64,000 nt of DNA, taken from positions 99,512 through 163,511 of the forward strand of contig JALGYY010000009.1 of assembly GCA_025782575.1 (NCBI GenBank), read 5' to 3'. The translations under genes were made by a program, and so were the position numbers. This DNA is from a bacterium (GTDB taxonomy: Bacteria > Orphanbacterota > Orphanbacteria > Orphanbacterales > Orphanbacteraceae). Below, one piece after another: positions 5,037-64,000 of this stretch. Numbering within the stretch: the stretch's first letter is position 1; every line of letters begins with the position of its first letter. The notes below the pieces were generated by a model. That model did no database searches and had not been told where the DNA came from. It worked only from the letters and a program-made list of their open reading frames with translations.

Positions 5037-6353
5037 TCAGGTGCGTTTCGGCGTCTCCAGTCGGTGGCACCAGAGCATCAGCATCACGGCATGGGCGAGA
5101 AGTACCGCCCCGATCATCTGATGAAATGTGGCGATCATCACTTCCCCGCCGGAGGGCGGGCCCGGCTTCGGCTCGAACCCGACCGCCAGAAGTGTGGCGA
5201 AGCCGAGAATGAACTGGACGGTGGTAATACCGACTATGGCGATCCCCGTCTTCTTGATAGCAGCAAGATCCCCCTCGATCTGAGAGACGCGCATACCGAC
5301 ATACACGGCAAAGCCGAGCACGATCACCGCTACCCCGATATGGATCAGGAGTCCCGAGTCGAGGTGACGCTGCATGGCGCCGATCGTGATCTGAGTCAGA
5401 ACGATCAGGACGAGTATGATCGAGTTTATCCGATCGCCGCCGGCGGAATCAGTCGGCACCGGATCGCCGCTCTTCTTCCATCGGCTGGAGAGAAAGACCA
5501 TGATCGAAACCATGACGCCGAAAAAGATCTGCCCGAGAACGCCGTGATAGGCGGCCAATAATGTGCTGGGAGACATATCTTCGGCGGAAGTGCTGAGTGT
5601 GGGGGTGCCCGTTACCCGCATACCGCCGAGCAGCCCCTGAGCGATCACAAGAAGCACGGCAAGAACGAGAACTCCGCGGAGCCACTTGCGTCGGTCGGTG
5701 CGAAATACATGGATTGCCAGAACCAGAGTCGTAATGCCGACTAGCGAGCCGAGCAACCGGTGGGAATGTTCGTAATAAATGCCGCCACTCATCTTGGCGA
5801 GCGGGTAGAGAAACATGTTGTAGCCGAAAGAGTTGGGCCAATCAACGACTGCCAGCCCCGCTCCGGCGCTCGTGACGACTCCCCCGGCGATCAGAAGCAG
5901 GAAGGTGGCGCCCGCACCGATCAGGCCGAACGCACCGGTCCAGTTTCGGGCTTCGCCGCTCCCATCCGTGACGGGGCGCTTCGCCCCTCCGATTGCGCCG
6001 CCCACTGCTCCCAGCAGCGCGCTCAGCACGAACCAGCCCGGTATCCAGAAGAGGGCAGATGGCGCCACATCGTTCGGCTCCCCGCTCCCCCCCCCGAGAA
6101 CGCTCCCCAGTATCAGAAGGTTCAGCGCGGCTACCAGCAGTCCGGTCTTCAGGCCCGCTTTCCAGGCTCCTTCTCGAAGGCGTCCGGACATATATCCCCC
6201 CCCCAGAACGAGGAGTAGGAGCAGAACTGCCAACAGAGCGGGAGGAGCTGAAACGCCCGGGATACGGAGAAGATAGCCCAGTGTCCACATGACAACGGTA
6301 GTGCCGAACCCGAGGGCGAGGAGCGCCCCCCTGCTGTCGTTTTCCTGAGACAT
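5037..6353 (-). CDS. ctaA: Heme A synthase (CtaA/COX15 family) with an extra N-terminal membrane extension
   Basis: COX15/CtaA signature region VTSAGAGLAVVDWPNSFGYNMFLYP, the YYEHSHRLLG His motif and a second half with HQMIGAVLLAHAVMLM. About 130 extra N-terminal residues carry additional TM helices. Confidence 0.8.
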   Translation of the reverse strand: MSQENDSRGALLALGFGTTVVMWTLGYLLRIPGVSAPPALLAVLLLLLVLGGGYMSGRLREGAWKAGLKTGLLVAALNLLILGSVLGGGSGEPNDVAPSALFWIPGWFVLSALLGAVGGAIGGAKRPVTDGSGEARNWTGAFGLIGAGATFLLLIAGGVVTSAGAGLAVVDWPNSFGYNMFLYPLAKMSGGIYYEHSHRLLGSLVGITTLVLAIHVFRTDRRKWLRGVLVLAVLLVIAQGLLGGMRVTGTPTLSTSAEDMSPSTLLAAYHGVLGQIFFGVMVSIMVFLSSRWKKSGDPVPTDSAGGDRINSIILVLIVLTQITIGAMQRHLDSGLLIHIGVAVIVLGFAVYVGMRVSQIEGDLAAIKKTGIAIVGITTVQFILGFATLLAVGFEPKPGPPSGGEVMIATFHQMIGAVLLAHAVMLMLWCHRLETPKRT

Positions 6354-53988: not shown

Positions 53989-56900
53989 TCACCGAATGAG
54001 CATCATCTTCTTCGTTGCGGCGAATCCGCTCGCCTGCATGCGCACGAAGTAAAGTCCTGATGCGACACTCCGCCCCTGGCTGTCGTGCCCCTGCCAGTTC
54101 ACATCCAGGTATCCGGCATCTCGTTCGTCATCGATGAGAGTTTTGACAAGGCGGCCGGCCAGATCGTAGATCGAAATATTGATATGTGACCGTTCGGGTA
54201 GACCGAATCGGATCGATGTGGTCGGGTTGAACGGGTTCGGCACGTTGCCGTAAAGCAGGAACGCAGCGGGAACCGCCTCTGCTTCATCCACTCCGGTCGG
54301 GTCGCCCGACTCCAGGAACTGATAGAAAGCATCAGCCACAAAGCCGGTCAGTTCCTGCACAGTTCCGCTCGGCCACGAAATCCGGATCGAATCAACCACT
54401 GTCGCCGATCCGAGCCCGAATTCGGCTGTAAGCGAGTTCTGCGACCCATAGCCTGAGCCGCCGGTGATTTCACGGATCTGGGCGAGGCCGCCTGCAACGA
54501 TACGAACCCGGGCGCCGATAGCCGAACGGTTGGACGGCGATCCCACCAGATTGACGTGAACCCAGTGATTGCCTGTTACGGCCTCGTTACGGAAGAGCCT
54601 TTTCGTAGCCGCGCTCGTCGCGATGTAGAGATCGAGATCGCCGTCGCTGTCGATGTCCGCCCAGGCCGCGCCGAGTCCGTTTCCTGCGTTAACGAGCGAG
54701 TCATCGGTCGCATCAGAAAAGAGACCGCCTCCTTCATTTCGGAAGAGTTTGTTCGATCCCGACTGATTGAGATAGAGATCGAGGTCCCCGTCATTGTCGT
54801 AGTCGGCCCAGGCGATTCCCCGGCCGCCCCCAATATCGGCGAGTAGGAGGGGAGTCACGTCGGCGAACACTCCGCCGCCGTCATTCCGGAACAACTTATT
54901 GGCGGCGCTCTCGTTCGAAACGTAGAGATCGAGATCGCCATCGTTATCGTAGTCAGCCCAAGCGACGCCATATGCCGAGCCGGCGTCTCCGAGAGGACCA
55001 GCCGTTATGTCGGTGAACGTTCCGCCGCCTTGATTCTCCAGCAGTTGATTGGGGCTGAACGCGTTCCCCACGTAGAGATCGAGATCACCGTCGTTATCGT
55101 GGTCGCCCCACGCACCTGAGAAGGAGAAACCAAGGCTGCTGAGCGGCCCGCTCGTGATGTCTGTGAATCCGCCGGCGCCGTCATTGTCGAGCAGTTTGTT
55201 GAACGATCCCGCGTTCGTAATATAGAGATCGAGATCACCGTCGTTGTCATGGTCCCCCCAGGCGCCCGAAAAACCGAAGCCGGCGTCGTTAAGGACCGCA
55301 GAGACTATATCAGCGAATACTCCTCCCCCGTCATTCCGGAAGAGTTTGTTCGCGGTCCCCGAGTTGACGAGATAGAGATCGAGGTCGCCGTCATTGTCGT
55401 AGTCACCCCACGCGCTCTGTACGCCATCGCCGGCATCGTTGAGAGGCGGCGCCGATACATCCGCGAATGTCGCCCCGTCGTCATTCCGAAACAGCTTGTT
55501 GGCCCCGAACGAGAGGCTGACGTAGAGGTCCTCGTCGCCATCGCCGTCATAGTCGCCCCAGGAAACGCCCTGAACGGTTCCCGCGTGAATGAGTCCGCTG
55601 GCGGTCACATCCGCCCAGTCAGGCACAGGCTCCGTGATCGTGAGCGCCGTATCGACAGTGATCGCGGTCAGGAGCGACAGTTGCCCCGAAGGCCAGAAGA
55701 CCTGGAGCGTGTCGATCAGAGTCGACGCCCCGAGCCCGAAGTCGGCCGGGAGGGAGTTCTGGGAGAGGTAACCGGAACCGCCGGAAATGTCTCGAATCTG
55801 TGCGATCCCGCCGGCCACGGCTCTCACACGCGCGCCGATTCCTGCTTTGTTCGAGATGACTCCGGCCGTCTTCACGCGAAGCCAGTGATTCCCCGAAGTC
55901 TGGTCGTTTCGGAAGAGTTTGTTGGCACCGAGATTGGCGACGAATAGATCGAGATCACCGTCACCGTCGCTGTCGCCCCAGATCACGCTCTGGCTGTTAC
56001 CGGCGTCACTCGTTTCGAAGTTTGCCGCGTCAACAAAAATCCCGCCGTCATTGCGGAAAAGGCGGTTAAAGTATTTGCCGGCCACGTAGAGATCGAGGTC
56101 ACCATCCAGATCGTAATCGCCCCATGCCGCTCCGTAGCTTTCACCATCCACGTCGACCGGCGACGCTGATACTTCGGTGAATGATCCTCCGCTGTTCCGG
56201 AAGAGCTGGTTCGGCCCGATGTTGGTGACGTAGGCGTCGAGGTCGCCGTCATTGTCGTAATCACCCCATGCGACGCCTCTCCCCGTGCCGTTGTCCGAAG
56301 CACCAAGCCCGCCTCCGAGTTCCGTGAAGGTGCCGTTCGAATTGTTGCGGAATATCTTGTTGCTCCCCTCGTTCACCAGATAAATGTCCTGGTCACCGTC
56401 GTTGTCGTAGTCGACCCATACGGTCGCCCAACTGGGGCCACTGTTGGCGACCGTGCCCGGTGTGATATCGATCAGCGTTCCCGAGTCGTTTCTGAGGAGA
56501 CGATTCGACTCGTTGTAATTCGTGATGTAGAGGTCGACATCGCCGTCGTTGTCGTAGTCGCCGAATGCGGCCGCGCGGCCGGCGCCCGGATGACCCGCAC
56601 CGCCGGAGGTCCCGTCGATAAATGTGCCTCCCCCTTGATTTTCAAAGAGTTTATTGGCTCCGTCATTGGCGAGGTAGAGGTCGAGATCGCCGTCGTTGTC
56701 TACATCGGCCCACGCCGTCCCGTAACTGATCGAAGCGTCGTCCAGGGGGGCGGCCGTAACATCGGAATAGCCGGCCGGACTGTTTTGGAGCAGCTGATTC
56801 GCTCCATCGCTGTTCGTGATATAGAGATCGGCATCGCCGTCTCCGTCGAAATCGGCCCAGGCGGCTCCCCGTGCCATACCCGTATGACCGACCGCCGCAC

Positions 56901-59900
56901 TTGTGGCGTCGTGAATCAATGTGGACGGCGCGAACGGGGGAGCGATATCGAAGAACGCATCACTCTGATCGATCACAGCGCCTGCGGAATTGAAAAGCGT
57001 CACACGCACGAGTGCTTCCCGGCTTGGAAGGTTGGGGACGACCCAGGCCAGGCTTCCTCCACCGCCGCCGGCGAGGCTGTCGGCGAGCAATGTCCACGTC
57101 ATTCCGCTGTCACCGCTCGACTCCACCGTATGGGCGACAGCCGAGCCTCCGCCGTTGGTCCATGTGATATTCACATTGCTGCCGATCTCGAGTGATTCGC
57201 CTCCGTTCGGCGATGTCACCGCCGTGATCGGGGCGGCTGTGATCGCGAAAGTCGCATCGCTCGTATCCCGGTCACTTCCCGCTGCGTTGGAGAGGAGGAC
57301 GCGAACCCGGCCCTGGGTGGTCTCATCGTTCGGTACCGTCCAGTCAAATCCGCCCAGCTGCCCGCTTGATCCGGAGGCGACCGGATTCCACGAAGAGCCG
57401 TTGTCGGTGGAATACTCGAGTGTGTAGTCAGAACCCACAGCGGATGTGCTCGTCCAGGTGATTTCTCTTACCGTTCCGACTCCCCAGTCTTCACCGCCGT
57501 CAGGAGAGAGGATGAGGGCGACCGGCGCAATGAACGACTCCGTAATCGTTACGAGTGTGTCCGCCGCGAGCGCGGTTACGATCTGATCGATTCCTGATGG
57601 CCAGCTCACGATCAGCGTGTCCACGGTCGTCGTCTGGCCGATCCCGATCTCCGCTCGAAGCGAGCCCTGGCTTCGGCCGTTGCCAGCCGTTATCTCACGG
57701 ATAAAGGATTTGCCCCCGGCCACGGCTCGAATGCGGGCGCCCACACCATGGGAGTTCGACACCGTTCCCGCCAGATCGACCTGGATATAGTGATCGCACT
57801 CCGCAGAGAGAGGGGTTGTCCGAAGCAGCACATTGCCACTCCCGTCATTGCCGAGATAGAGATCCATGAGGCCGTCACCGTCATAATCGGCCCAGGCCGC
57901 CGCGGCATGGTCGTTTCCGGCGTCCGTCTGGAGAGTGTCGGTCAGTTCGTGAAATTTCGCTTTGTAGTTGAAGAAAAACAGATTATCGTCAGGCGAGGCA
58001 TTCCCCACGAAGAGGTCGATGTGGCCGTCGTTGTTATAGTCCGCCCATGAAACGGTAACCGCGTCGGATGCATCTCCGAGCAATCCGCCCGTTACATCCG
58101 CGAACGTCCCCCCGCCGTCATTCCGGAAGAGTTTGTTCGCGCCGTTGTTCCCTACATAAAGATCGAGGTCGCCGTCGTTGTCGATATCCGCCCAGGCGGC
58201 CGACCGGCTCACTACGGACGCTTCCCCGATCGAAGCGGGGGTAACGTCGGTGAACGATCCGGCACCGTTGTTTTCGAAGAGCTTATTTCCCGCCGCGACA
58301 GAACGGGCGAGGTAGAGATCCATGTCGCCGTCGTCGTCGAAATCACCCCAGGCGATGCCGGCGCCGTCAGTTGTGGTGGCGAACGCACCGCTCGCGACAT
58401 CGGTGAACGATCCGGTCCCGTCATTCTCGAACAGGCTGCTTCCCGAAGAGGTCACGATATGGAGATCGAGATCGCCGTCATTGTCCTTGTCGAGCCATTC
58501 CACGGCCACGCCGTCACCGGCGTTGCCGATCCCGGCCGGTGTGATGTCGGCGAACACGCCGCCGCCGTCGTTCCGGAGAAGAAGATTGGCCGAGCCTGTA
58601 TTTGTGATTACGAGATCGAGATCACCATCGTCGTCGAAATCTCCCCAGGCGGCTCCTGATCCGGCACCCGCGTTCCCGAGATCACCGGAAGTCACATCGA
58701 CGAACGTTCCGGCCTGATTCTCGAGGAGTGCGTTGGCGCCGTTATTCAGCAGGAAGAGATCGGCATCGCCGTCGCCGTCGTAGTCGCCCCAGGCGACACC
58801 CGTCGCGCTGCCCGCATCAGCAAGCGGACCGCTGGTCGAATCGGCGATCCCGGTAATACCGAATGCGTTTCGAATATTCAGGAAACCATAGCCGTATTTC
58901 GGATCGAACCCCGCAACGCCGCGGTCACGGGCGGAGCATTGGAGTCGCGCTTCCACTTCGGCGGCAGAGAGAGTCGGGTCGAGCGAGAAAAGTAGAGCCG
59001 CCACGCCGGCGGAGTAGGGCGAAGAAAAGCTCGTTCCACTCACGGACGCATAGTCTCCCGGTGCGACGCCGGCGGATCCGACACGGTCCGTCGTATAGAC
59101 GGAGACACCAGGTGCGGCAAAGGCGAGGCTGTCACCCCAGCTGCTGAACGAAGCCAGATTTCCGTCCCGGCCGACGGCCGAAATCGAGTTCACCTTGCTA
59201 TGGGAAGAGGGGTATCCGAGAACGGCGACAGCATTGTTTCCCGCGCTTGCGAAACTGACGATGCCGTTCGCATAGGCATTGTCGTATGCATCGTCGATCG
59301 TGCTGTTCGGGCTTCCGAGCGACCAGCTCAGATTTGTCACTTTTGCGCCCTGCTGCCGGGCCCAGTTGAGTGCGTTGGCCACCCAGATTGACTGGCATTG
59401 CCCGGTTCCGTCACAAGGGACCGTGGATACACAGATCCGACCTCCGGCGACTCGGCAGCCCGGGGCGATTCCGACCGTACCGAGGGAGTTGTTGATCGTC
59501 GCCGACACGCAGCCCGCTACGGTCGTTCCATGTGTGTCACACATGTTGAAAGGGTTGCCGCCTCCTCCTTCACCCGTAAAGTCCTCTCCGGCGATCTGAT
59601 GGAGGTCGGGATGAACCTGATCGACGCCGTCGTCGAATACGGCGACGATGATAGTGGAGTCTCCCGTGGTGAGATCCCACGCCCGGACACCACCCATATC
59701 CATGCCCGGCGTACCGCCGGACTGACCTGTGTTATGGATGCCCCACACCAGATTGAATCCAGTGTCGTTCGGAATGAGCGATCTCCTCGATTCCATCTGG
59801 AAGTCCGGTTCGGCCCAGGAAATACGGGAGTCCGCGGCGAGCCGGTTCGCAAGTGCGAGTACATCGAAACCGTTCTGTGAGGCAATGCTGGAACGAAGCC

Positions 59901-60432
59901 GATAAGCTCCGTCCAGTCCGGCAAAATCGGTTTCCAGAATCTGGATGGTGGGTTCGAGTTCGAACAGGATCTCTTCGGCGCGATATCGAGAAGCGGGATC
60001 GAACCTTACGAGAATTTCGGGGGTCACGGCGAGCCATCCGAAGAAGTGGCCGCGAAAGACCGGAGAGACGAACTCGAACTGGTCCGATGCGACGAGGATA
60101 TTGATCATCCGGTCTGCATCACTTGCATCTACAGCTTCTGATTCCAGAAAGAGAAACTGGGAACTGGGCATAGGAGCGCTCTTCATTGACATGGCGGGGA
60201 TACCCGCAATATTCAGACTACCGAGCAGGCGCTTCCGGCCGACTTCTTCCGTAATCGCTTCTTTCGGCGTCACGGCGAATCGGGAGCCGTCTAGCTCGAG
60301 CTGCAGTGCTTCCCCTTTGTAGTAATAGAATGTTGGCGGTGATTCCGCGTGAACCAGGGCCGGTCCGGACGGGAGTGCTGAAAGAGTAATAGAGAATGCG
60401 AGCGTGCAGACAATCGAGCGCAATCGGATCAT
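53989..60432 (-). CDS. Giant secreted multidomain protein: subtilisin-like S8 peptidase + about 25-30 FG-GAP/VCBS beta-propeller repeats + three UnbV/ASPIC domains + T9SS C-terminal sorting domain
   Basis: Start MIRLRSIVCTLAFSITLSALPSGPALVHA (signal peptide) preceded by CAGGAGG. S8 catalytic triad motifs (DDGVDQVHPDL; HGTTVAGC; GTSFSSPY). Repeats of the form WGDYDNDGDLDLY..N.G.NKLFRN. UnbV_ASPIC blocks such as HWLRVKTAGVISNKAGIGARVRAVAGG..IRDISGGSGY. C-terminal Por_Secre_tail-like 90 aa (NVPNPFNPTTSIRFGL...IYDLAGRLVKTL...GLYFVRMQASGF...KMMLIR). Confidence 0.85.
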   Translation of the reverse strand: MIRLRSIVCTLAFSITLSALPSGPALVHAESPPTFYYYKGEALQLELDGSRFAVTPKEAITEEVGRKRLLGSLNIAGIPAMSMKSAPMPSSQFLFLESEAVDASDADRMINILVASDQFEFVSPVFRGHFFGWLAVTPEILVRFDPASRYRAEEILFELEPTIQILETDFAGLDGAYRLRSSIASQNGFDVLALANRLAADSRISWAEPDFQMESRRSLIPNDTGFNLVWGIHNTGQSGGTPGMDMGGVRAWDLTTGDSTIIVAVFDDGVDQVHPDLHQIAGEDFTGEGGGGNPFNMCDTHGTTVAGCVSATINNSLGTVGIAPGCRVAGGRICVSTVPCDGTGQCQSIWVANALNWARQQGAKVTNLSWSLGSPNSTIDDAYDNAYANGIVSFASAGNNAVAVLGYPSSHSKVNSISAVGRDGNLASFSSWGDSLAFAAPGVSVYTTDRVGSAGVAPGDYASVSGTSFSSPYSAGVAALLFSLDPTLSAAEVEARLQCSARDRGVAGFDPKYGYGFLNIRNAFGITGIADSTSGPLADAGSATGVAWGDYDGDGDADLFLLNNGANALLENQAGTFVDVTSGDLGNAGAGSGAAWGDFDDDGDLDLVITNTGSANLLLRNDGGGVFADITPAGIGNAGDGVAVEWLDKDNDGDLDLHIVTSSGSSLFENDGTGSFTDVASGAFATTTDGAGIAWGDFDDDGDMDLYLARSVAAGNKLFENNGAGSFTDVTPASIGEASVVSRSAAWADIDNDGDLDLYVGNNGANKLFRNDGGGTFADVTGGLLGDASDAVTVSWADYNNDGHIDLFVGNASPDDNLFFFNYKAKFHELTDTLQTDAGNDHAAAAWADYDGDGLMDLYLGNDGSGNVLLRTTPLSAECDHYIQVDLAGTVSNSHGVGARIRAVAGGKSFIREITAGNGRSQGSLRAEIGIGQTTTVDTLIVSWPSGIDQIVTALAADTLVTITESFIAPVALILSPDGGEDWGVGTVREITWTSTSAVGSDYTLEYSTDNGSSWNPVASGSSGQLGGFDWTVPNDETTQGRVRVLLSNAAGSDRDTSDATFAITAAPITAVTSPNGGESLEIGSNVNITWTNGGGSAVAHTVESSGDSGMTWTLLADSLAGGGGGSLAWVVPNLPSREALVRVTLFNSAGAVIDQSDAFFDIAPPFAPSTLIHDATSAAVGHTGMARGAAWADFDGDGDADLYITNSDGANQLLQNSPAGYSDVTAAPLDDASISYGTAWADVDNDGDLDLYLANDGANKLFENQGGGTFIDGTSGGAGHPGAGRAAAFGDYDNDGDVDLYITNYNESNRLLRNDSGTLIDITPGTVANSGPSWATVWVDYDNDGDQDIYLVNEGSNKIFRNNSNGTFTELGGGLGASDNGTGRGVAWGDYDNDGDLDAYVTNIGPNQLFRNSGGSFTEVSASPVDVDGESYGAAWGDYDLDGDLDLYVAGKYFNRLFRNDGGIFVDAANFETSDAGNSQSVIWGDSDGDGDLDLFVANLGANKLFRNDQTSGNHWLRVKTAGVISNKAGIGARVRAVAGGIAQIRDISGGSGYLSQNSLPADFGLGASTLIDTLQVFWPSGQLSLLTAITVDTALTITEPVPDWADVTASGLIHAGTVQGVSWGDYDGDGDEDLYVSLSFGANKLFRNDDGATFADVSAPPLNDAGDGVQSAWGDYDNDGDLDLYLVNSGTANKLFRNDGGGVFADIVSAVLNDAGFGFSGAWGDHDNDGDLDLYITNAGSFNKLLDNDGAGGFTDITSGPLSSLGFSFSGAWGDHDNDGDLDLYVGNAFSPNQLLENQGGGTFTDITAGPLGDAGSAYGVAWADYDNDGDLDLYVSNESAANKLFRNDGGGVFADVTPLLLADIGGGRGIAWADYDNDGDLDLYLNQSGSNKLFRNEGGGLFSDATDDSLVNAGNGLGAAWADIDSDGDLDLYIATSAATKRLFRNEAVTGNHWVHVNLVGSPSNRSAIGARVRIVAGGLAQIREITGGSGYGSQNSLTAEFGLGSATVVDSIRISWPSGTVQELTGFVADAFYQFLESGDPTGVDEAEAVPAAFLLYGNVPNPFNPTTSIRFGLPERSHINISIYDLAGRLVKTLIDDERDAGYLDVNWQGHDSQGRSVASGLYFVRMQASGFAATKKMMLIR

Positions 60433-60659
60433 CGAGAGCCTCCTGATAGAAATACGACACAGCCGGAGCTGATCCGGCCTATCCGGTTCAAACTTGTTGA
60501 GAGGGGAACAAGGGAGATCCAAGTCGTTAACTTGATGAGAATTATAACATTCCAACCCGGCCGGAATCAAGTCGGATCGTCAGAGGGGTACTCGCGGTGG
60601 CCAGAATAGCGAGCTTGGAACAAAATTCGACATTTTCCACTATCTGACGAGGGGATCCG

Positions 60660-62195
60660 TCAATAGACGGGCATCTCCTGATCGACATCCTCTGCCCATG
60701 CCAGCAGACCGCCTTCCAGGTTTTTGACCTTCTTGAACCCCTGGTGAGCGAGATACATGGCCACCTGGGCGCTCCGGGCTCCGATTCGACACTGGCAGAC
60801 AATTTCCTTGTTGTGATCGATCTCGGCCAGTCGCGCGGGAATTTCGTTCATCGGAATGAGAACGGCTCCGGGTAACGAGCAGATCTGTACTTCATGGGGC
60901 TCTCGTACATCCAGAATGACAAATGAGTCGTCGCCGGCGTCCATTCGCTCTTTGAGCTGAACCGCTGTAATGTCTCCGGGCATGATGAACTCGCTGGTTT
61001 CATCGGCCTCCACCGATTCCTCCTGCTGTGCGAACCGCTTGCCCAGTTGCTCTTCCACCATCTTGTAGACTTCCCGGTTGGTATCCTCATCGGTTTGCGC
61101 ACCCGGAAGACCGCAGAACTCTTCATAGTCAATGAGTTCCCGTATGCTCGGATTGTCTCCGCAGATCGGGCAGTCCTTGTTGCGCCTCAGTTTGAGCTCT
61201 CGAAACTTCATACTGAGAGCATCGTAGAGCATGAGCCGACCCGAAAGAGTCTCTCCGATCCCCATCAGGATCTTGACAACCTCGGTCGCCTGGATCACTC
61301 CGATCAAGCCGGGCAGGATTCCCAGGACCCCCCCTTCCGCACAGGAAGGGACGAGTCCGGGGGGAGGCGGCTCCGGATAAAGGCACCGGTAGCACGGGCC
61401 GCCTTCATAGTGAAAGACAGAAGCCTGGCCTTCGAATCGAAAGATGCTCCCGTATACGTTCGGCTTGTTCAGCAGAACGCAGGCGTCGTTCACGAGATAG
61501 CGAGTGGGGAAGTTGTCCGTTCCATCGGCGACAACGTCATAGTCCCTGAAGATTTCGAGCGCATTGCCTGAATCGAGCCTGACTTCGTATGTCTTGATTT
61601 CCACATGAGGGTTTAGGTCGTTCAAACGATTTCTTGCCGACTCCAGCTTGGGCCGGTCCACGGTGCTCGTGCCATGCAGAATCTGACGCTGCAGATTCGA
61701 ATAGTCCACCACATCAAAATCGACGAGACCGATGCGCCCCACACCAGCGGCCGCCAGGTAGAGCGCCATCGGCGAGCCGAGTCCTCCCGCCCCGATGAGA
61801 AGCACACTCGCCCCCTTCAGCTTCTTCTGCCCCTCCATGGTCACTTCAGGCATGATGAGATGTCGGCTGTACCGTTGGATCTCCTCGTTGGAGAGCGTGA
61901 TTTCCGCTCCGCTGCCTCCGGCGATCGATGGAATGATGCTGATCTCATCACCATCTTTGACCGGGGTCTCCTCGTTATCGAGGTGCCGGATATCGTCGTC
62001 ATTGACGTAGACGTTCACAAAGTTCCGGAGGGTCCCCTCGCCCGAGTAGAGGTGCCGCTTCAGATCGGGGTGGGCGCTCGTAAGACCGGCGAGCAGTTCC
62101 CCTACCGTTCGGCCGTCGAGCAAGACTCGGGGCTCGCCTCCGGTATAATTCCTGAGCGGTGTGGGAATGTGGATGATTATGGGCACGGGGGTCAC
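60660..62195 (-). CDS. moeZ: Sulfur-carrier (ThiS/MoaD/CysO-like ubiquitin-fold, ending GG) fused to MoeZ-type E1 adenylyltransferase with C-terminal rhodanese domain
   Basis: N-terminal beta-grasp domain of about 95 aa ending ...GDEISIIPSIAGG, then directly LSNEEIQRYSRHLIMPEVTMEGQKKLKGASVLLIGAGGLGSP (ThiF/MoeB Rossmann). CxxC...CPIC zinc motif. C-terminal rhodanese with active Cys (CQCRIGARS). GTG start overlaps the JAMM stop (GTGA). Confidence 0.8.
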   Translation of the reverse strand: MTPVPIIIHIPTPLRNYTGGEPRVLLDGRTVGELLAGLTSAHPDLKRHLYSGEGTLRNFVNVYVNDDDIRHLDNEETPVKDGDEISIIPSIAGGSGAEITLSNEEIQRYSRHLIMPEVTMEGQKKLKGASVLLIGAGGLGSPMALYLAAAGVGRIGLVDFDVVDYSNLQRQILHGTSTVDRPKLESARNRLNDLNPHVEIKTYEVRLDSGNALEIFRDYDVVADGTDNFPTRYLVNDACVLLNKPNVYGSIFRFEGQASVFHYEGGPCYRCLYPEPPPPGLVPSCAEGGVLGILPGLIGVIQATEVVKILMGIGETLSGRLMLYDALSMKFRELKLRRNKDCPICGDNPSIRELIDYEEFCGLPGAQTDEDTNREVYKMVEEQLGKRFAQQEESVEADETSEFIMPGDITAVQLKERMDAGDDSFVILDVREPHEVQICSLPGAVLIPMNEIPARLAEIDHNKEIVCQCRIGARSAQVAMYLAHQGFKKVKNLEGGLLAWAEDVDQEMPVY

Positions 62196-62626
62196 TCCTC
62201 TCTTTCTCGTATCTGAATCAATTCACTGTCGAAGCCGGTTCGATCTTCACGCAGGAGCCAGGAGAGGGGGGTGGCCGGCTCGCCGCTCCGCACCTCAACA
62301 ATAATATAGGAATAAAAAGGCCAGGCATGTTCCCTGTCGAACTCGGACGGCTCTCCCGGGTGGTCGGGATGGGAATGGTATACGCCGACGATCTCCTTTG
62401 ATTCACGACGAGCACGCTTTTCGCTCTCGAGAACGGCCTCGGGGGCGATGAGATACCGGCGCCTCTGAGCCTGCCCTTCGCGCTCGTTCTCGACAGGCCA
62501 GAGATCCGTAATCCACTTGCTCTCTTCGTCGGCTCTCCCCACGAGGAATCCGCAGCATTCATGGGGATAGGTCTTTCGCCCATGCTCCCGAATCGACTCG
62601 AGCTGCTCCCTTGAAAGTCTGATCAT
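62192..62626 (-). CDS. JAMM/MPN+ metalloprotease (Mec+-like)
   Basis: E...HSHPDHPGEPSEFD: the JAMM motif ExnHxHx7Sx2D. 144 aa, tightly packed between cysM and moeZ. Confidence 0.8.
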   Translation of the reverse strand: MIRLSREQLESIREHGRKTYPHECCGFLVGRADEESKWITDLWPVENEREGQAQRRRYLIAPEAVLESEKRARRESKEIVGVYHSHPDHPGEPSEFDREHAWPFYSYIIVEVRSGEPATPLSWLLREDRTGFDSELIQIREREE

Positions 62627-63562
62627 CTAGCTCTCATCCCAGAATGACTCACTCAGGTAACGCTCTCCCCCATCACAAAGTATGGTGACTACCGTCCCCT
62701 CCGTGATTCTTCGTGCCACCTGAATTGCCGCCACGATATTCGCTCCGGATGATACGCCGACAAGGACGCCCGCCTCCCGCGCAAATCGCCTTACCATGGC
62801 CTGGGCCTCTTCCGTTTCGATTTCGATATTTTCGTCGGCAAAAGACGGGTCGTAGATGGGCGGTACTAGAACGGACTCCATATGCTTGAGGCCTTCGAGG
62901 CCATGCCAGGGAGAATCAGGCTGGACGCTGGAGAGGCGGATATCCGGGACGAGCTCTCGAAGCCTCCGGCCTGTTCCCATGAACGTTCCGGTTGTCCCGA
63001 GGCCGGCAACAAAATGAGTGACGGCGCCGTTCGTCTGCTCATGAATCTCGGGAGCGGTCGTCTTGTAATGGGCGCCCCAGTTGTCCGGGTTGCTGTACTG
63101 ATCAGGGTAGAACCATTGTCCCGGTGCTTCCTCATAGAGGGCGCGTGCTTTGTAGATGGCGCCGTCGATCCCCTCGCCCGGATCGGTAAGAATGAGATGG
63201 GCGCCATAAGCGAGCAGTGTTGACCGGCGCTCCCTGTTGGCGTTCGCGGGCAGGCAGAGAGTGACATCATATCCGCGGGATGAGCCGATCATCGCCAGCG
63301 CAATACCCGTGTTTCCGGACGTTGCTTCCAGAATCTTTCCCCCCGGTTTCAAACGCCCCCCGTTCTCCGCTGTCAGGATCATGTTGAGAGCGGCGCGATC
63401 CTTGACGGAACCGCCGGGGTTGGCAAACTCCGCTTTTCCGAACAGACTGACCCCTGGGGGGATTTCGTCGGCCACAGCTTCGAGTGAAAGGAGGGGGGTG
63501 TTTCCGATCAGGTCGATCAGACCCTGATTGTATCTGTCCATCGCCGGCTCAGAAGTTGACAC
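62627..63562 (-). CDS. cysM: Cysteine synthase (CysM/CysK family; probably carrier-thiocarboxylate-dependent CysM type)
   Basis: PLP-fold motifs (GNTPLL...NPGGSVKDRAA...ATSGNTGIALA). Start may instead be the downstream ATG at 63541. Confidence 0.85.
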   Translation of the reverse strand: MSTSEPAMDRYNQGLIDLIGNTPLLSLEAVADEIPPGVSLFGKAEFANPGGSVKDRAALNMILTAENGGRLKPGGKILEATSGNTGIALAMIGSSRGYDVTLCLPANANRERRSTLLAYGAHLILTDPGEGIDGAIYKARALYEEAPGQWFYPDQYSNPDNWGAHYKTTAPEIHEQTNGAVTHFVAGLGTTGTFMGTGRRLRELVPDIRLSSVQPDSPWHGLEGLKHMESVLVPPIYDPSFADENIEIETEEAQAMVRRFAREAGVLVGVSSGANIVAAIQVARRITEGTVVTILCDGGERYLSESFWDES

Positions 63563-63838
63563 GGACTACTCCAATCAAAAACGCAGAAAGCGCTTCCGTC
63601 TCAGATGCATCAACTCAGGGGTGAAGGGAGCGGGCGGCTCAGTTGCGAAATGTTATGTAGAATGTTACATCACCGAGAGCAAGAAAGCAAACTGATCGGT
63701 TTTGCCGGTCTACGCACCAGGAAAGGGGATCATGCCTGACATCACGCTGATCGGGACCAATACATGCGGGACGACGGGAAGGGCGCGGACATGATGGGCA
63801 AGCTCTTCGGCGGAAAGTAGTTCCGCTGTAATCCAACG

Positions 63839-63868
63839 AGGATGAGAGAGTATGGAGTCTCTCATCCT
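63839..63868. other. Stable hairpin (11-bp stem, 8-nt loop) in the terminal non-coding region
   Basis: AGGATGAGAGA / TCTCTCATCCT perfect inverted repeat followed by TTTCGTGTG. No adjacent gene can be assigned within the window. Confidence 0.3.
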
Positions 63869-64000
63869 TTCGTGTGCCCTGTTCGGAACGGCGCATTACG
63901 TACCGAGCGCCCGAGGGGGATGAGCATGAGAAATGAGACGAATACCAGAACGGCCGAGATGCCGAAGGGGGCCGGTGCCCCCGACCAATCATAGAGCCAC

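What the first reader, a model, noticed from the sequence alone, without database searches (positions are those of the whole stretch)
60660..63562. cysM - JAMM protease - [sulfur carrier::E1::rhodanese] operon with the ubiquitin-like carrier translationally fused to its own activating enzyme
The three genes abut with no gap or a 4-bp overlap. Their content matches the CysO/CysM/Mec+/MoeZ route of cysteine synthesis, a protein-thiocarboxylate sulfur donor pathway described in Mycobacterium. Here the ThiS/MoaD-like beta-grasp domain, ending in the obligatory Gly-Gly (...SIAGG), is the N-terminal 95 aa of the same polypeptide as the MoeB/ThiF adenylation domain and the rhodanese. Adenylation and thiocarboxylation need a free GG carboxylate. 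The carrier must therefore be excised, presumably by the adjacent JAMM metalloprotease, or the fusion represents a cis-acting variant. Either way it is a compact prokaryotic ubiquitin-like activation and deconjugation module worth characterising.
Basis: partly seen in the sequence, partly recalled or inferred. Interest (0 to 1): 0.6.

Follow-up and report, generated by a model that had tools for sequence, protein, structure and literature searches.

The report
Sulfur-carrier protein fused to its activating enzyme
This is a real three-gene cysteine-synthesis operon in which the small ubiquitin-like sulfur carrier is made as one polypeptide with its activating enzyme, so it almost certainly has to be cut free by the neighbouring protease; the arrangement is common in soil bacteria and noted in earlier genome surveys, but I found no experimental study of it.

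Summary
On the minus strand lie a CysM-like PLP enzyme (62627-63562), a JAMM/Prok-JAB metalloprotease (62192-62626) and one ORF (60660-62195) combining a CysO-like beta-grasp domain that ends in AGG, a MoeB/MoeZ-type E1 domain and a rhodanese domain. It is not a frameshift: an independent assembly gives the identical protein, and the 120 best database homologues all have the same three domains.

Across 83 related loci, 61 are fused and 22 have a separate cysO gene at the same position, in the order cysM-JAB-cysO-moeZ. The state changed about 12-16 times on the E1 tree. In 20 of the 22 split loci the free CysO still carries 1-27 residues after GG. Trimming after GG therefore looks like a general need in this clade, with the fusion as its extreme form.

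Best reading: a CysO-thiocarboxylate cysteine pathway whose carrier is released by the adjacent JAMM protease. Known precedents are HvJAMM1 cutting a SAMP1-MoaE fusion, QbsD/QbsE, CxnF/CxnE and MoaX. Cleavage itself is inferred, not shown.

Ubl-E1 fusions and this operon type were already noted in surveys from 2006 and 2010. Verdict: a new member of a known kind, of moderate interest (0.35).

The parts
62627..63562 (-). CysM-like PLP-dependent cysteine synthase (311-aa ORF; likely true start ATG 63541, giving 304 aa)
   Evidence: Pfam PALP 6.7e-68. NCBIfam cysKM subfamily scores 344.7 bits against a 344.15 cutoff; the cysM equivalog scores 349.7, below its 394.2 cutoff. PDB best hit is enteric CysM 2jc3 at 2.5e-72; M. 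tuberculosis CysM 3dwg_A is 3.6e-55 at 37% identity, and K226 aligns with M. tuberculosis R220. A homologue lies upstream of the JAB gene in 75 of 83 related loci.
62192..62626 (-). JAMM/MPN+ (Prok-JAB) zinc metalloprotease, Mec+/desampylase-like, 144 aa
   Evidence: Pfam Prok-JAB 2.3e-25. NCBIfam desampylase 7e-22, below its cutoff. The motif E23...H84-S-H86-x7-S94-x2-D97 is intact here and in 76 of 77 locus homologues. PDB best hit is 2kcq at 6e-26. A JAB gene is present next to the E1 gene in 77 of 83 loci.
60660..62195 (-). Single ORF encoding CysO-like carrier + E1 + rhodanese (511 aa from GTG 62195; probably 508 aa from GTG 62186)
   Evidence: Identical protein P0001 (508 aa) in an independent assembly. 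The 120 best homologues all carry PF02597 + PF00899 + PF00581.
61914..62195 (-). CysO/MoaD-like beta-grasp carrier domain (residues 1-94), ending in A92-G93-G94 (GG codons at 61914-61919)
   Evidence: Pfam ThiS 2e-15 over the full profile. End-to-end alignment with CysO structures 4n6e_B (6e-19) and 3dwg_C (1.7e-16), whose own C-termini are the GG. AlphaFold2 pLDDT 88 with Foldseek top hits to CysO. AGG is invariant in 61 aligned fusions.
61896..61913 (-). Junction/linker S95-G-A-E-I-T100 after GG; predicted cleavage site G94|S95
   Evidence: pLDDT is below 50 for residues 91-96. Across homologues this segment varies in length and sequence: the distance from GG to the Arg finger is 10-45 aa, median 19, and 13 here. 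The first residue after GG is small (S/A/T/V/G) in 54 of 59 loci and 118 of 120 database homologues. There is no in-frame ATG, GTG or TTG between GG and the RYSRHL motif.
61167..61871 (-). MoeB/MoeZ-type E1 adenylation domain (residues 109-343)
   Evidence: Pfam ThiF 8e-84. NCBIfam MoeB/MoeZ models. Foldseek hits MoeB 1jw9_B at TMt 0.90 and Uba4 6yub. Invariant features are the GxGxxG motif, R108 in RYSRHL, zinc cysteines C268/C271/C342/C345 and loop Cys285.
60690..60965 (-). C-terminal rhodanese domain (residues 411-502) with active-site loop C469-R-I-G-A-R474-S
   Evidence: Pfam Rhodanese 4e-19. C469, G472, R474 and S475 are invariant.

Best explanation
The three genes form an operon for protein-thiocarboxylate-dependent cysteine synthesis of the CysO/CysM/Mec+/MoeZ type. 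The carrier and its activating enzyme are translated as one precursor.

Proposed sequence of events:
1. The JAMM protease cuts the precursor after G94, at AGG|SGAEIT. This releases a roughly 10-kDa CysO with a free Gly-Gly carboxylate and a MoeZ-like E1-rhodanese enzyme in a 1:1 ratio.
2. The E1 domain adenylates CysO.
3. The persulfide on rhodanese Cys469 converts the adenylate to CysO-COSH.
4. The PLP enzyme adds the thiocarboxylate to its aminoacrylate intermediate, and an S-to-N acyl shift gives CysO-Gly-Gly-Cys.
5. The same JAMM protease hydrolyses the Gly-Cys peptide bond. This releases cysteine and recycles CysO.

What is shown here: the domain identities, the intact catalytic motifs, the invariant internal GG followed by a variable disordered linker, the conserved gene order, and the existence of split orthologues. 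What is inferred: cleavage, the identity of the protease, and the sulfur chemistry. These rest on characterised homologues.

The fusion most likely arose by loss of the stop codon between adjacent cysO and moeZ genes. It is tolerated because this clade's CysO is matured by trimming after GG anyway.
For: Domains and motifs.

The fusion is real and conserved:
- The 120 best of 8000 scored homologues all have the three domains.
- An independent assembly gives the identical protein.

Comparative evidence from 83 loci, covering 80 GTDB species:
- 61 are fused and 22 are split, with cysO immediately upstream of moeZ in the same order cysM-JAB-cysO-moeZ.
- 20 of the 22 standalone CysO proteins carry 1-27 residues after AGG, for example NGDR, CVNRAG, CCPCGCCCCPR, C and MY. 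Only 2 end at GG.
- Fused and split states interconverted about 12-16 times on the E1 tree.
- JAB is adjacent in 77 of 83 loci and CysM in 75 of 83.
- The junction is disordered in the model.
- The residue after GG is small, as at the MoaX G82|S83 cleavage site (PMC4326299).

The window holds no other CysO-like ORF, and there is no internal start codon that could give a separate functional E1.

Experimental precedents:
- HvJAMM1 cuts a linear SAMP1-MoaE fusion exactly after GG. Cleavage depends on the GG and is required for activity (PMC4443979).
- QbsD is proposed to trim the CF dipeptide from QbsE, and CxnF a decapeptide from CxnE, after their GG motifs (both as discussed in PMC5925218).
- MoaX must be cleaved after GG to be active (PMC4326299).
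- Mec+ hydrolyses the CysO-cysteine adduct (PMC3227635).
Against: - No cleavage data exist for any CysO-E1 fusion. I found none in three literature searches.
- The JAB gene would be needed for cysteine release whether or not it processes the precursor, so its presence does not by itself prove the processing role.
- The PLP enzyme is more similar to enteric CysM (OAS/thiosulfate type) than to M. tuberculosis CysM. It lacks the M. tuberculosis C-terminal tail and has Lys where M. tuberculosis has Arg220. Its use of a protein thiocarboxylate therefore rests on gene context.
- Three fused loci (L046, L063, L069) have no JAB within 5 kb.
- The rest of the source genome could not be searched for further carriers.
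Confidence: 0.62

Rival explanations
1. The precursor is cleaved after GG, but not by the adjacent JAB protein. Cleavage would be autocatalytic or done by a housekeeping protease, and the JAB protein would act only in releasing cysteine from the CysO-Cys adduct.
For: The protease that cleaves MoaX after G82 was still unidentified in 2015, and some cleavage, at the wrong site, occurred in E. coli (PMC4326299). Three fused loci lack a nearby JAB gene.
Against: Every characterised case in which the protease is known uses a JAMM enzyme encoded next to the carrier or acting on it (PMC4443979, PMC5925218). The native Mec+ reaction already hydrolyses an alpha-peptide bond directly after GG (PMC3227635). 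JAB is adjacent in 77 of 83 loci and sits immediately upstream of the fusion gene here.
Confidence: 0.15
2. The fused N-terminal beta-grasp domain is never released. It would be a structural or regulatory appendage of the E1, like the Ubl domain on some ThiF proteins, and the true carrier would be a free ThiS/MoaD/CysO encoded elsewhere.
For: Iyer et al. 2006 describe ThiF proteins with a fused N-terminal Ubl that co-occur with a standalone ThiS, and they infer a non-carrier role for the fused domain (PMC1779556). One fused locus (L073) has AAG instead of AGG. The rest of this genome could not be searched.
Against: AGG is invariant in 61 aligned fusions, which would be unnecessary for a non-carrier domain. 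In 22 related loci the same domain is a free-standing cysO gene at the same operon position. The domain aligns end to end with biochemically proven CysO proteins. No standalone carrier is present in the operon or the window. The junction is a variable, disordered linker.
Confidence: 0.08
3. The module activates the carrier for something other than cysteine synthesis, either instead of it or in addition to it. Candidates are molybdopterin synthesis, tRNA thiolation, or covalent protein modification as with SAMP or TtuB, with the JAB protein acting as the deconjugase.
For: M. tuberculosis MoeZR serves both CysO and MoaD (PMC3227635). The carrier domain also scores against SAMP1 (1e-15) and the JAB protein against the desampylase model (7e-22), both. 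The E1 passes only a MoeB-named NCBIfam cutoff (PRK08762).
Against: A CysM-like gene is tightly linked in 75 of 83 loci. No E2-like, MoaE, ThiG or tRNA-thiolation gene is present in the operon. The SAMP1 and desampylase scores are below their family cutoffs.
Confidence: 0.12

Closest known systems
Mycobacterium tuberculosis Mec+-CysO-CysM plus MoeZR cysteine pathway (Burns et al. 2005, as summarised in PMC3227635)
   Same: The four functions are the same: a CysO-like beta-grasp carrier with GG, an E1 with a C-terminal rhodanese, a JAMM protease and a CysM-family PLP enzyme. The carrier domain aligns end to end with M. tuberculosis CysO (1.7e-16).
   Different: Here the carrier is the N-terminal domain of the E1 polypeptide, and moeZ lies inside the operon, whereas in M. 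tuberculosis the operon is named mec+-cysO-cysM without moeZ. M. tuberculosis CysO ends exactly at GG. The PLP enzyme is only 37% identical to M. tuberculosis CysM, lacks its C-terminal tail and has Lys in place of Arg220.
Ubl-partner linear fusions that must be cut after GG: M. tuberculosis MoaX (MoaD-MoaE; PMC4326299) and SAMP1-MoaE cleaved by HvJAMM1 (PMC4443979)
   Same: An N-terminal sulfur-carrier Ubl with an internal GG is fused to its own pathway partner. The fusion is inactive until cut after GG. MoaX is cut at GG|S, the same residue pair as AGG|S here. HvJAMM1 shows that a JAMM enzyme can perform this cut on a linear fusion.
   Different: The partner fused here is the activating E1, not the sulfur-acceptor synthase subunit. 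The SAMP1-MoaE fusion was engineered. The protease that cuts MoaX is unknown.
Sulfur-carrier precursors with short tails after GG, trimmed by a cluster-encoded JAMM: QbsE/QbsD and CxnE/CxnF (PMC5925218)
   Same: The carrier is made as a precursor, the JAMM gene is adjacent, and a MoeZ-type E1-rhodanese activates it. Split orthologues of this locus carry just such tails, several starting with Cys as in the CF tail of QbsE.
   Different: Those tails are 2-10 residues long and the pathways make secondary metabolites. Here the 'tail' is a 417-residue enzyme and the partner is a cysteine synthase.
Operon type 4c of Iyer, Burroughs and Aravind 2006 (ThiS/MoaD + E1-rhodanese + JAB + cysteine synthase; PMC1779556) and the 'Ubl-E1' fusions noted by Makarova and Koonin 2010 (PMC2948915)
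   Same: The gene content is the same, and an overlapping lineage is represented: Solibacter usitatus (Acidobacteria) is listed under type 4c. Makarova and Koonin list Ubl-E1 as an architecture shared between Thaumarchaeota and bacteria.
   Different: Those surveys mention the arrangement only in passing. They do not analyse the GG junction, the split/fused interconversion or the post-GG tails, and they include no experiments.

Membership tests
CysO/CysM/Mec+/MoeZ protein-thiocarboxylate cysteine pathway | Beta-grasp carrier of the CysO/MoaD type with a Gly-Gly motif at the end of the fold | tested here: met
   Pfam ThiS 2e-15. End-to-end alignment to CysO structures 4n6e_B and 3dwg_C. AlphaFold2 model with Foldseek TM 0.82-0.90. 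AGG is invariant.
CysO/CysM/Mec+/MoeZ protein-thiocarboxylate cysteine pathway | The carrier's Gly-Gly is the free C-terminus of the translated protein | tested here: not met
   GG is residues 93-94 of a 511-aa ORF with no intervening stop codon. This is the point of difference from the family, and the carrier would have to be cut free after translation.
CysO/CysM/Mec+/MoeZ protein-thiocarboxylate cysteine pathway | MoeZ-type E1: adenylation domain with nucleotide-binding motif, zinc cysteines and loop cysteine, plus a C-terminal rhodanese domain with an active-site cysteine | tested here: met
   ThiF 8e-84 and Rhodanese 4e-19. Invariant C268/C271/C342/C345, C285 and C469/R474. Fold matches to MoeB and Uba4. 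Among NCBIfam equivalogs only PRK08762 (MoeB) passes its cutoff; the MoeZ model PRK07878 scores 494 against a cutoff of 647.
CysO/CysM/Mec+/MoeZ protein-thiocarboxylate cysteine pathway | Adjacent JAMM metalloprotease with an intact E...HxHx7SxxD motif | tested here: met
   E23 and H84-S-H86-x7-S94-x2-D97. Prok-JAB 2.3e-25.
CysO/CysM/Mec+/MoeZ protein-thiocarboxylate cysteine pathway | CysM of the M. tuberculosis type (O-phosphoserine-specific, with Arg220 and a C-terminal tail, accepting CysO-COSH) | tested here: inconclusive
   It is a CysK/CysM family member, 37% identical to M. tuberculosis CysM. Lys226 aligns with Arg220 and the C-terminal tail is absent. It is closer to enteric CysM. Linkage to JAB and the E1 in 75 of 83 loci supports a functional coupling. 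The role of Arg220 is taken from my own knowledge of Agren et al. 2008, which I did not read here.
CysO/CysM/Mec+/MoeZ protein-thiocarboxylate cysteine pathway | Formation of CysO-COSH and JAMM-dependent release of cysteine | not testable with these tools
   Biochemical assays would be required.
Ubl sulfur-carrier precursors matured by a JAMM protease (QbsE/QbsD, CxnE/CxnF, SAMP1-MoaE/HvJAMM1) | Extra residues follow the GG of the carrier in the primary translation product | tested here: met
   417 residues follow GG here. 1-27 residues follow GG in 20 of 22 split orthologues.
Ubl sulfur-carrier precursors matured by a JAMM protease (QbsE/QbsD, CxnE/CxnF, SAMP1-MoaE/HvJAMM1) | A JAMM protease gene lies in the same cluster | tested here: met
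   The JAB gene is immediately upstream here and adjacent in 77 of 83 loci.
Ubl sulfur-carrier precursors matured by a JAMM protease (QbsE/QbsD, CxnE/CxnF, SAMP1-MoaE/HvJAMM1) | Demonstrated cleavage exactly after GG | not testable with these tools
   Needs co-expression and mass spectrometry.
ThiF with a non-carrier N-terminal Ubl domain (Campylobacter type; Iyer et al. 2006) | Co-occurs with a standalone ThiS and thiamine-synthesis genes in the operon | tested here: not met
   The window has no standalone ThiS/CysO-like ORF. The neighbours are CysM, JAB, an MFS transporter and a secreted S8 protease.
Protein-conjugating bacterial or archaeal Ubl systems (E1-E2-JAB, Bil/Cap2, SAMP) | An E2-like or other conjugation component in the operon, and an E1 without a rhodanese domain | tested here: not met
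   The three products show no E2/UBC domain, and the E1 carries a rhodanese domain. Iyer et al. note that E1s in conjugation-type operons never have a rhodanese domain.

The most novel reading that the evidence does not exclude
The fusion is a regulated zymogen rather than a neutral product of stop-codon loss. In the uncleaved dimer, each CysO domain would be tethered about 13 residues from the Arg-finger helix (R108). By analogy with MoeB (from my memory of that structure), this helix reaches into the partner subunit's ATP site. The CysO domain would then occupy or block that site until the JAMM protease cuts it. Zinc- or redox-dependent JAMM activity would gate both E1 activation and carrier supply in a fixed 1:1 ratio. 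This would resemble the way ubiquitin is made as fusion precursors in eukaryotes. It might also give the CysO domain a second life as a protein modifier.
Probability: 0.1. Interest if true: 0.6.

Novelty: new member of a known kind. Interest (0 to 1): 0.35.

Why it matters
Public annotation labels this protein simply 'MoeB' or 'adenylyltransferase/sulfurtransferase'. That hides a complete, self-contained CysO-type cysteine pathway that appears widespread in Acidobacteriota, Gemmatimonadota, Eisenbacteria and other soil phyla.

The comparative pattern makes a specific claim testable. The pattern is a fused carrier in 61 loci, a tailed carrier in 20 and a bare GG end in only 2. The claim is that the Mec+-type JAMM protease has two jobs, precursor maturation and cysteine release. 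If that holds, it also offers a candidate class of enzyme for the still-unidentified MoaX protease.

It is also a clean natural example of a ubiquitin-like protein made as a fusion precursor with a partner enzyme, paralleling eukaryotic ubiquitin fusion genes. It does not reveal a new kind of system.

Tried and rejected
- **Frameshift or assembly artefact:** rejected. The junction sequence is clean, an independent assembly agrees, and the architecture is conserved in the 120 best database homologues and in 61 of 83 related loci.
- **Separate carrier in the window:** an HMM search of 792 ORFs found none.
- **Independent translation of the E1 from an internal start:** rejected. There is no ATG, GTG or TTG in frame between GG and the RYSRHL motif.
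- **Regulatory RNA or riboswitch upstream:** no Rfam match at E<=1 in 60400-64000. The promoter and terminator scan was no better than shuffled sequence inside the operon.
- **Estimating the fused-to-free ratio of CysO domains:** I tried the 1.84-billion-protein representative library. This was abandoned because many of the 100-330-aa representatives are truncated or frameshifted fragments of fusions.
- **Geometry of the CysO domain relative to the E1 active site:** could not be examined. Model coordinates and PAE are not exposed, and no multimer prediction is available.
- **Literature on a CysO-MoeZ or Ubl-E1 fusion:** three searches found only the passing mention in PMC2948915. Burroughs et al. 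2009 on the E1-like superfamily was not among the listed results of the search aimed at it and was not read. O'Leary et al. 2008 (PMC2647513) is not held.
- **Source organism:** not named in the collection.


Full report
**Observation**

Three co-directional ORFs lie on the minus strand at 62627-63562, 62192-62626 and 60660-62195.

Pfam assigns them as follows:
- the first is PALP (6.7e-68);
- the second is Prok-JAB (2.3e-25);
- the third carries ThiS (residues 8-94, 2e-15), ThiF (109-343, 8e-84) and Rhodanese (411-502, 4e-19).

NCBIfam agrees, with cysKM, desampylase-like, and MoeB/MoeZ plus SAMP1/MoaD-like matches.

The junction reads I-A-G-G-S-G-A-E-I-T-L, with no stop codon and no suspicious run of bases. 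An independent Logan assembly encodes the identical protein.

Two small corrections apply. The ribosome-binding site GAGGAG fits the second GTG (62186), giving 508 aa and a 5-nt gap after the JAB stop rather than a 4-bp overlap. cysM probably starts at ATG 63541.

**What each part is**

*Carrier domain.* The N-terminal 94 residues align end to end with two crystallised CysO proteins. These are 4n6e_B (6e-19) and M. tuberculosis CysO 3dwg_C (1.7e-16). Their own C-termini coincide with G93-G94 of this protein. Modelled alone, the domain has pLDDT 88 and pTM 0.80. Its best structural matches are CysO (TM 0.84/0.90, rmsd 1.7 A), SAMP1 and Urm1.

*E1 and rhodanese.* In the full-length model, residues 91-96 have pLDDT below 50. 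The E1-rhodanese part matches Uba4 and MoeB, the latter at TMt 0.90. In an alignment of 61 fusions the following are invariant:
- A92-G93-G94;
- the Arg-finger motif RYSRHL;
- the zinc cysteines C268, C271, C342 and C345;
- loop Cys285;
- the rhodanese loop C469...R474.

*JAB protease.* It has an intact E23...H84-S-H86-x7-S94-x2-D97 motif.

*PLP enzyme.* It is a CysK/CysM family member. It is closer to enteric CysM (2.5e-72) than to M. tuberculosis CysM (3.6e-55, 37% identity). Lys226 aligns with M. tuberculosis Arg220, and the M. tuberculosis C-terminal tail is absent.

**How common the fusion is**

The 120 best of 8000 scored database homologues (60-72% identical) all have the three-domain architecture.

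The best 80 loci come mainly from Acidobacteriota (Vicinamibacteria, Bryobacterales, Terriglobales, Blastocatellia, Thermoanaerobaculia), Gemmatimonadota and Eisenbacteria. A few come from Verrucomicrobia, Chloroflexota, Bacteroidota and archaeal MAGs.

I called ORFs in all loci and searched them with the four window domains. The results were:
- 61 loci are fused;
- 22 have a separate cysO gene directly upstream of moeZ, in the same order cysM-JAB-cysO-moeZ;
- JAB is adjacent in 77 of 83 loci and CysM in 75 of 83.

On a neighbour-joining tree of the E1-rhodanese part, Fitch parsimony needs 13-14 fused/split changes. Bootstraps give 12-16, and shuffled states give 16-22. The state is therefore very labile. 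That fits simple gain and loss of a stop codon. In at least 11 split loci, cysO and moeZ are in the same frame, separated by one stop codon.

**The key comparative result**

In 20 of the 22 split loci the free-standing CysO does not end at GG. It carries 1-27 further residues, for example NGDR, CVNRAG, CCPCGCCCCPR, C, MY and ANA. Only L071 and L076 stop directly after GG.

In the fused proteins the segment after GG is variable in length and sequence. The distance from GG to the Arg finger is 10-45 residues, with a median of 19 and a value of 13 here. The first residue after GG is almost always small: S, A, T, V or G in 54 of 59 loci and in 118 of 120 database homologues.

The wider protein library also holds other architectures of this carrier:
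- tandem CysO-CysO proteins;
- a JAB-CysO fusion;
- tailed carriers;
- carriers ending at a bare GG.

Removal of whatever follows GG therefore looks like a normal maturation step for this clade's carrier. The fusion to the E1 is the extreme case.

**Mechanism**

Adenylation and thiocarboxylation require a free glycine carboxylate. An uncleaved 'cis-acting' carrier is therefore not chemically credible. There is also no in-frame start codon between GG and the Arg-finger motif that could yield a separate functional E1. The precursor must be cut at G94|S95.

The adjacent JAMM protease is the best candidate, for three reasons.
1. The characterised homologue Mec+ already hydrolyses the peptide bond directly after the GG of CysO, in the CysO-cysteine adduct (PMC3227635).
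2. HvJAMM1 cleaves a linear SAMP1-MoaE fusion exactly after GG. The cleavage depends on the GG and is required for activity in vivo (PMC4443979).
3. QbsD is proposed to trim the CF dipeptide from QbsE, and CxnF a decapeptide from CxnE (both as discussed in PMC5925218).

M. tuberculosis MoaX, a MoaD-MoaE fusion, must likewise be cut at G82|S83, by a protease that is still unidentified (PMC4326299).

After release, the pathway would run as in M. tuberculosis:
1. adenylation by the E1;
2. sulfur transfer from the rhodanese persulfide;
3. addition to the PLP-aminoacrylate intermediate;
4. release of cysteine by the JAMM protease.

All of these steps are inferred from homologues, and none was tested here. 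Whether the acceptor is O-acetylserine or O-phosphoserine cannot be decided from sequence.

**Rivals**

- Cleavage by another protease or by autoproteolysis (confidence 0.15).
- A non-released, regulatory Ubl domain with the true carrier encoded elsewhere (0.08). This is disfavoured by the invariant GG, by the split orthologues and by the lack of another carrier in the window.
- A role other than, or additional to, cysteine synthesis (0.12). This is disfavoured by the tight CysM linkage and the absence of E2, MoaE or ThiG genes.

**Comparison with what is known, and novelty**

The operon type (ThiS/MoaD + E1-rhodanese + JAB + cysteine synthase) was catalogued in 2006. The listing included the acidobacterium Solibacter usitatus (PMC1779556).

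'Ubl-E1' fusions 'shared with bacteria' were mentioned in 2010 (PMC2948915). JGI product names already list all three domains.

I found no paper that analyses or tests a CysO-E1 fusion. The library lacks many subscription-journal papers, including Burroughs et al. 2009 on the E1-like superfamily.

The window's locus is therefore a new member of a known kind: a fused sub-architecture of the CysO pathway that is real, conserved and apparently uncharacterised, but neither rare nor conceptually new. What this analysis adds is the split/fused lability and the near-universal post-GG tails. Together they turn 'presumably excised by the JAMM' into a specific prediction that is cheap to test.

**Context**

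The operon sits among ordinary chromosomal genes. An MFS transporter lies upstream. Downstream are a 2193-aa secreted subtilase/FG-GAP protein, then DUF1028, an M20 peptidase, transhydrogenase subunits and glutamate dehydrogenase. There is no Rfam element in or around the operon.

Noticed in passing
window 53989-60570 (-): Immediately downstream of the operon lies a 2193-aa ORF. It combines an S8 subtilase domain, about 18 FG-GAP repeats, three ASPIC/UnbV domains and a C-terminal FlgD-Ig/Por secretion-tail sorting domain. This looks like a giant secreted or surface protease-adhesin. A sigma-70-like promoter match (10 of 12) sits at its TTG start.
   Followed up: partly
loci L009, L023, L030, L048, L054, L058, L077; proteins P0122, P0123: Standalone CysO orthologues carry short tails after GG that are often rich in cysteine or begin with it. 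Examples are CCPCGCCCCPR, CVNRAG, C, SSCCR, SC, CCVMTCGT and ACCRSKHLAR. GG-Cys mimics the CysO-cysteine adduct that Mec+ hydrolyses, and it recalls the CF tail of QbsE. Whether these tails bind metal or have a regulatory role is unknown.
   Followed up: partly
proteins P0121, P0161, P0233 (tandem) and P0127 (JAB-CysO): The public protein library holds di-Ubl proteins with two CysO-like domains head to tail, so the first GG is internal, as in polyubiquitin. It also holds a 231-aa protein with a JAB domain fused N-terminally to a CysO domain ending in AGGR.
   Followed up: no
L073 (Gemmatimonadaceae MAG), junction near 5270: One fused homologue has A-A-G instead of A-G-G at the carrier end, together with the shortest linker found. 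In MoaX the equivalent G81A change abolished cleavage (PMC4326299). This copy may therefore be uncleavable or degenerate.
   Followed up: no
L042, L068, L075, L082 (MAGs labelled Thermoplasmata and Nitrososphaerales): The same fused gene with adjacent cysM and JAB appears in contigs binned as archaea, at 52-55% identity to the window protein. This could be horizontal transfer or a binning error. Makarova and Koonin 2010 independently report Ubl-E1 fusions in Thaumarchaeota.
   Followed up: no
window 62186-62195 and 63541-63562: The start codons are probably downstream of the longest-ORF starts. For the fusion, the second GTG (62186) has a well-spaced GAGGAG ribosome-binding site, and it matches the 508-aa database entry. 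For cysM, ATG 63541 matches the 304-aa gene call in L001.
   Followed up: yes
window 61914-61919: The two glycine codons GGA GGC form a GGAGG Shine-Dalgarno-like sequence inside the ORF, but no start codon follows within 40 nt in any useful frame. It is probably coincidental and a consequence of encoding Gly-Gly.
   Followed up: partly
L046, L063, L069: These fused loci have neither a JAB nor a CysM homologue within 5 kb upstream, even though the contigs extend that far. The fusion gene can therefore be uncoupled from the operon in some genomes.
   Followed up: no
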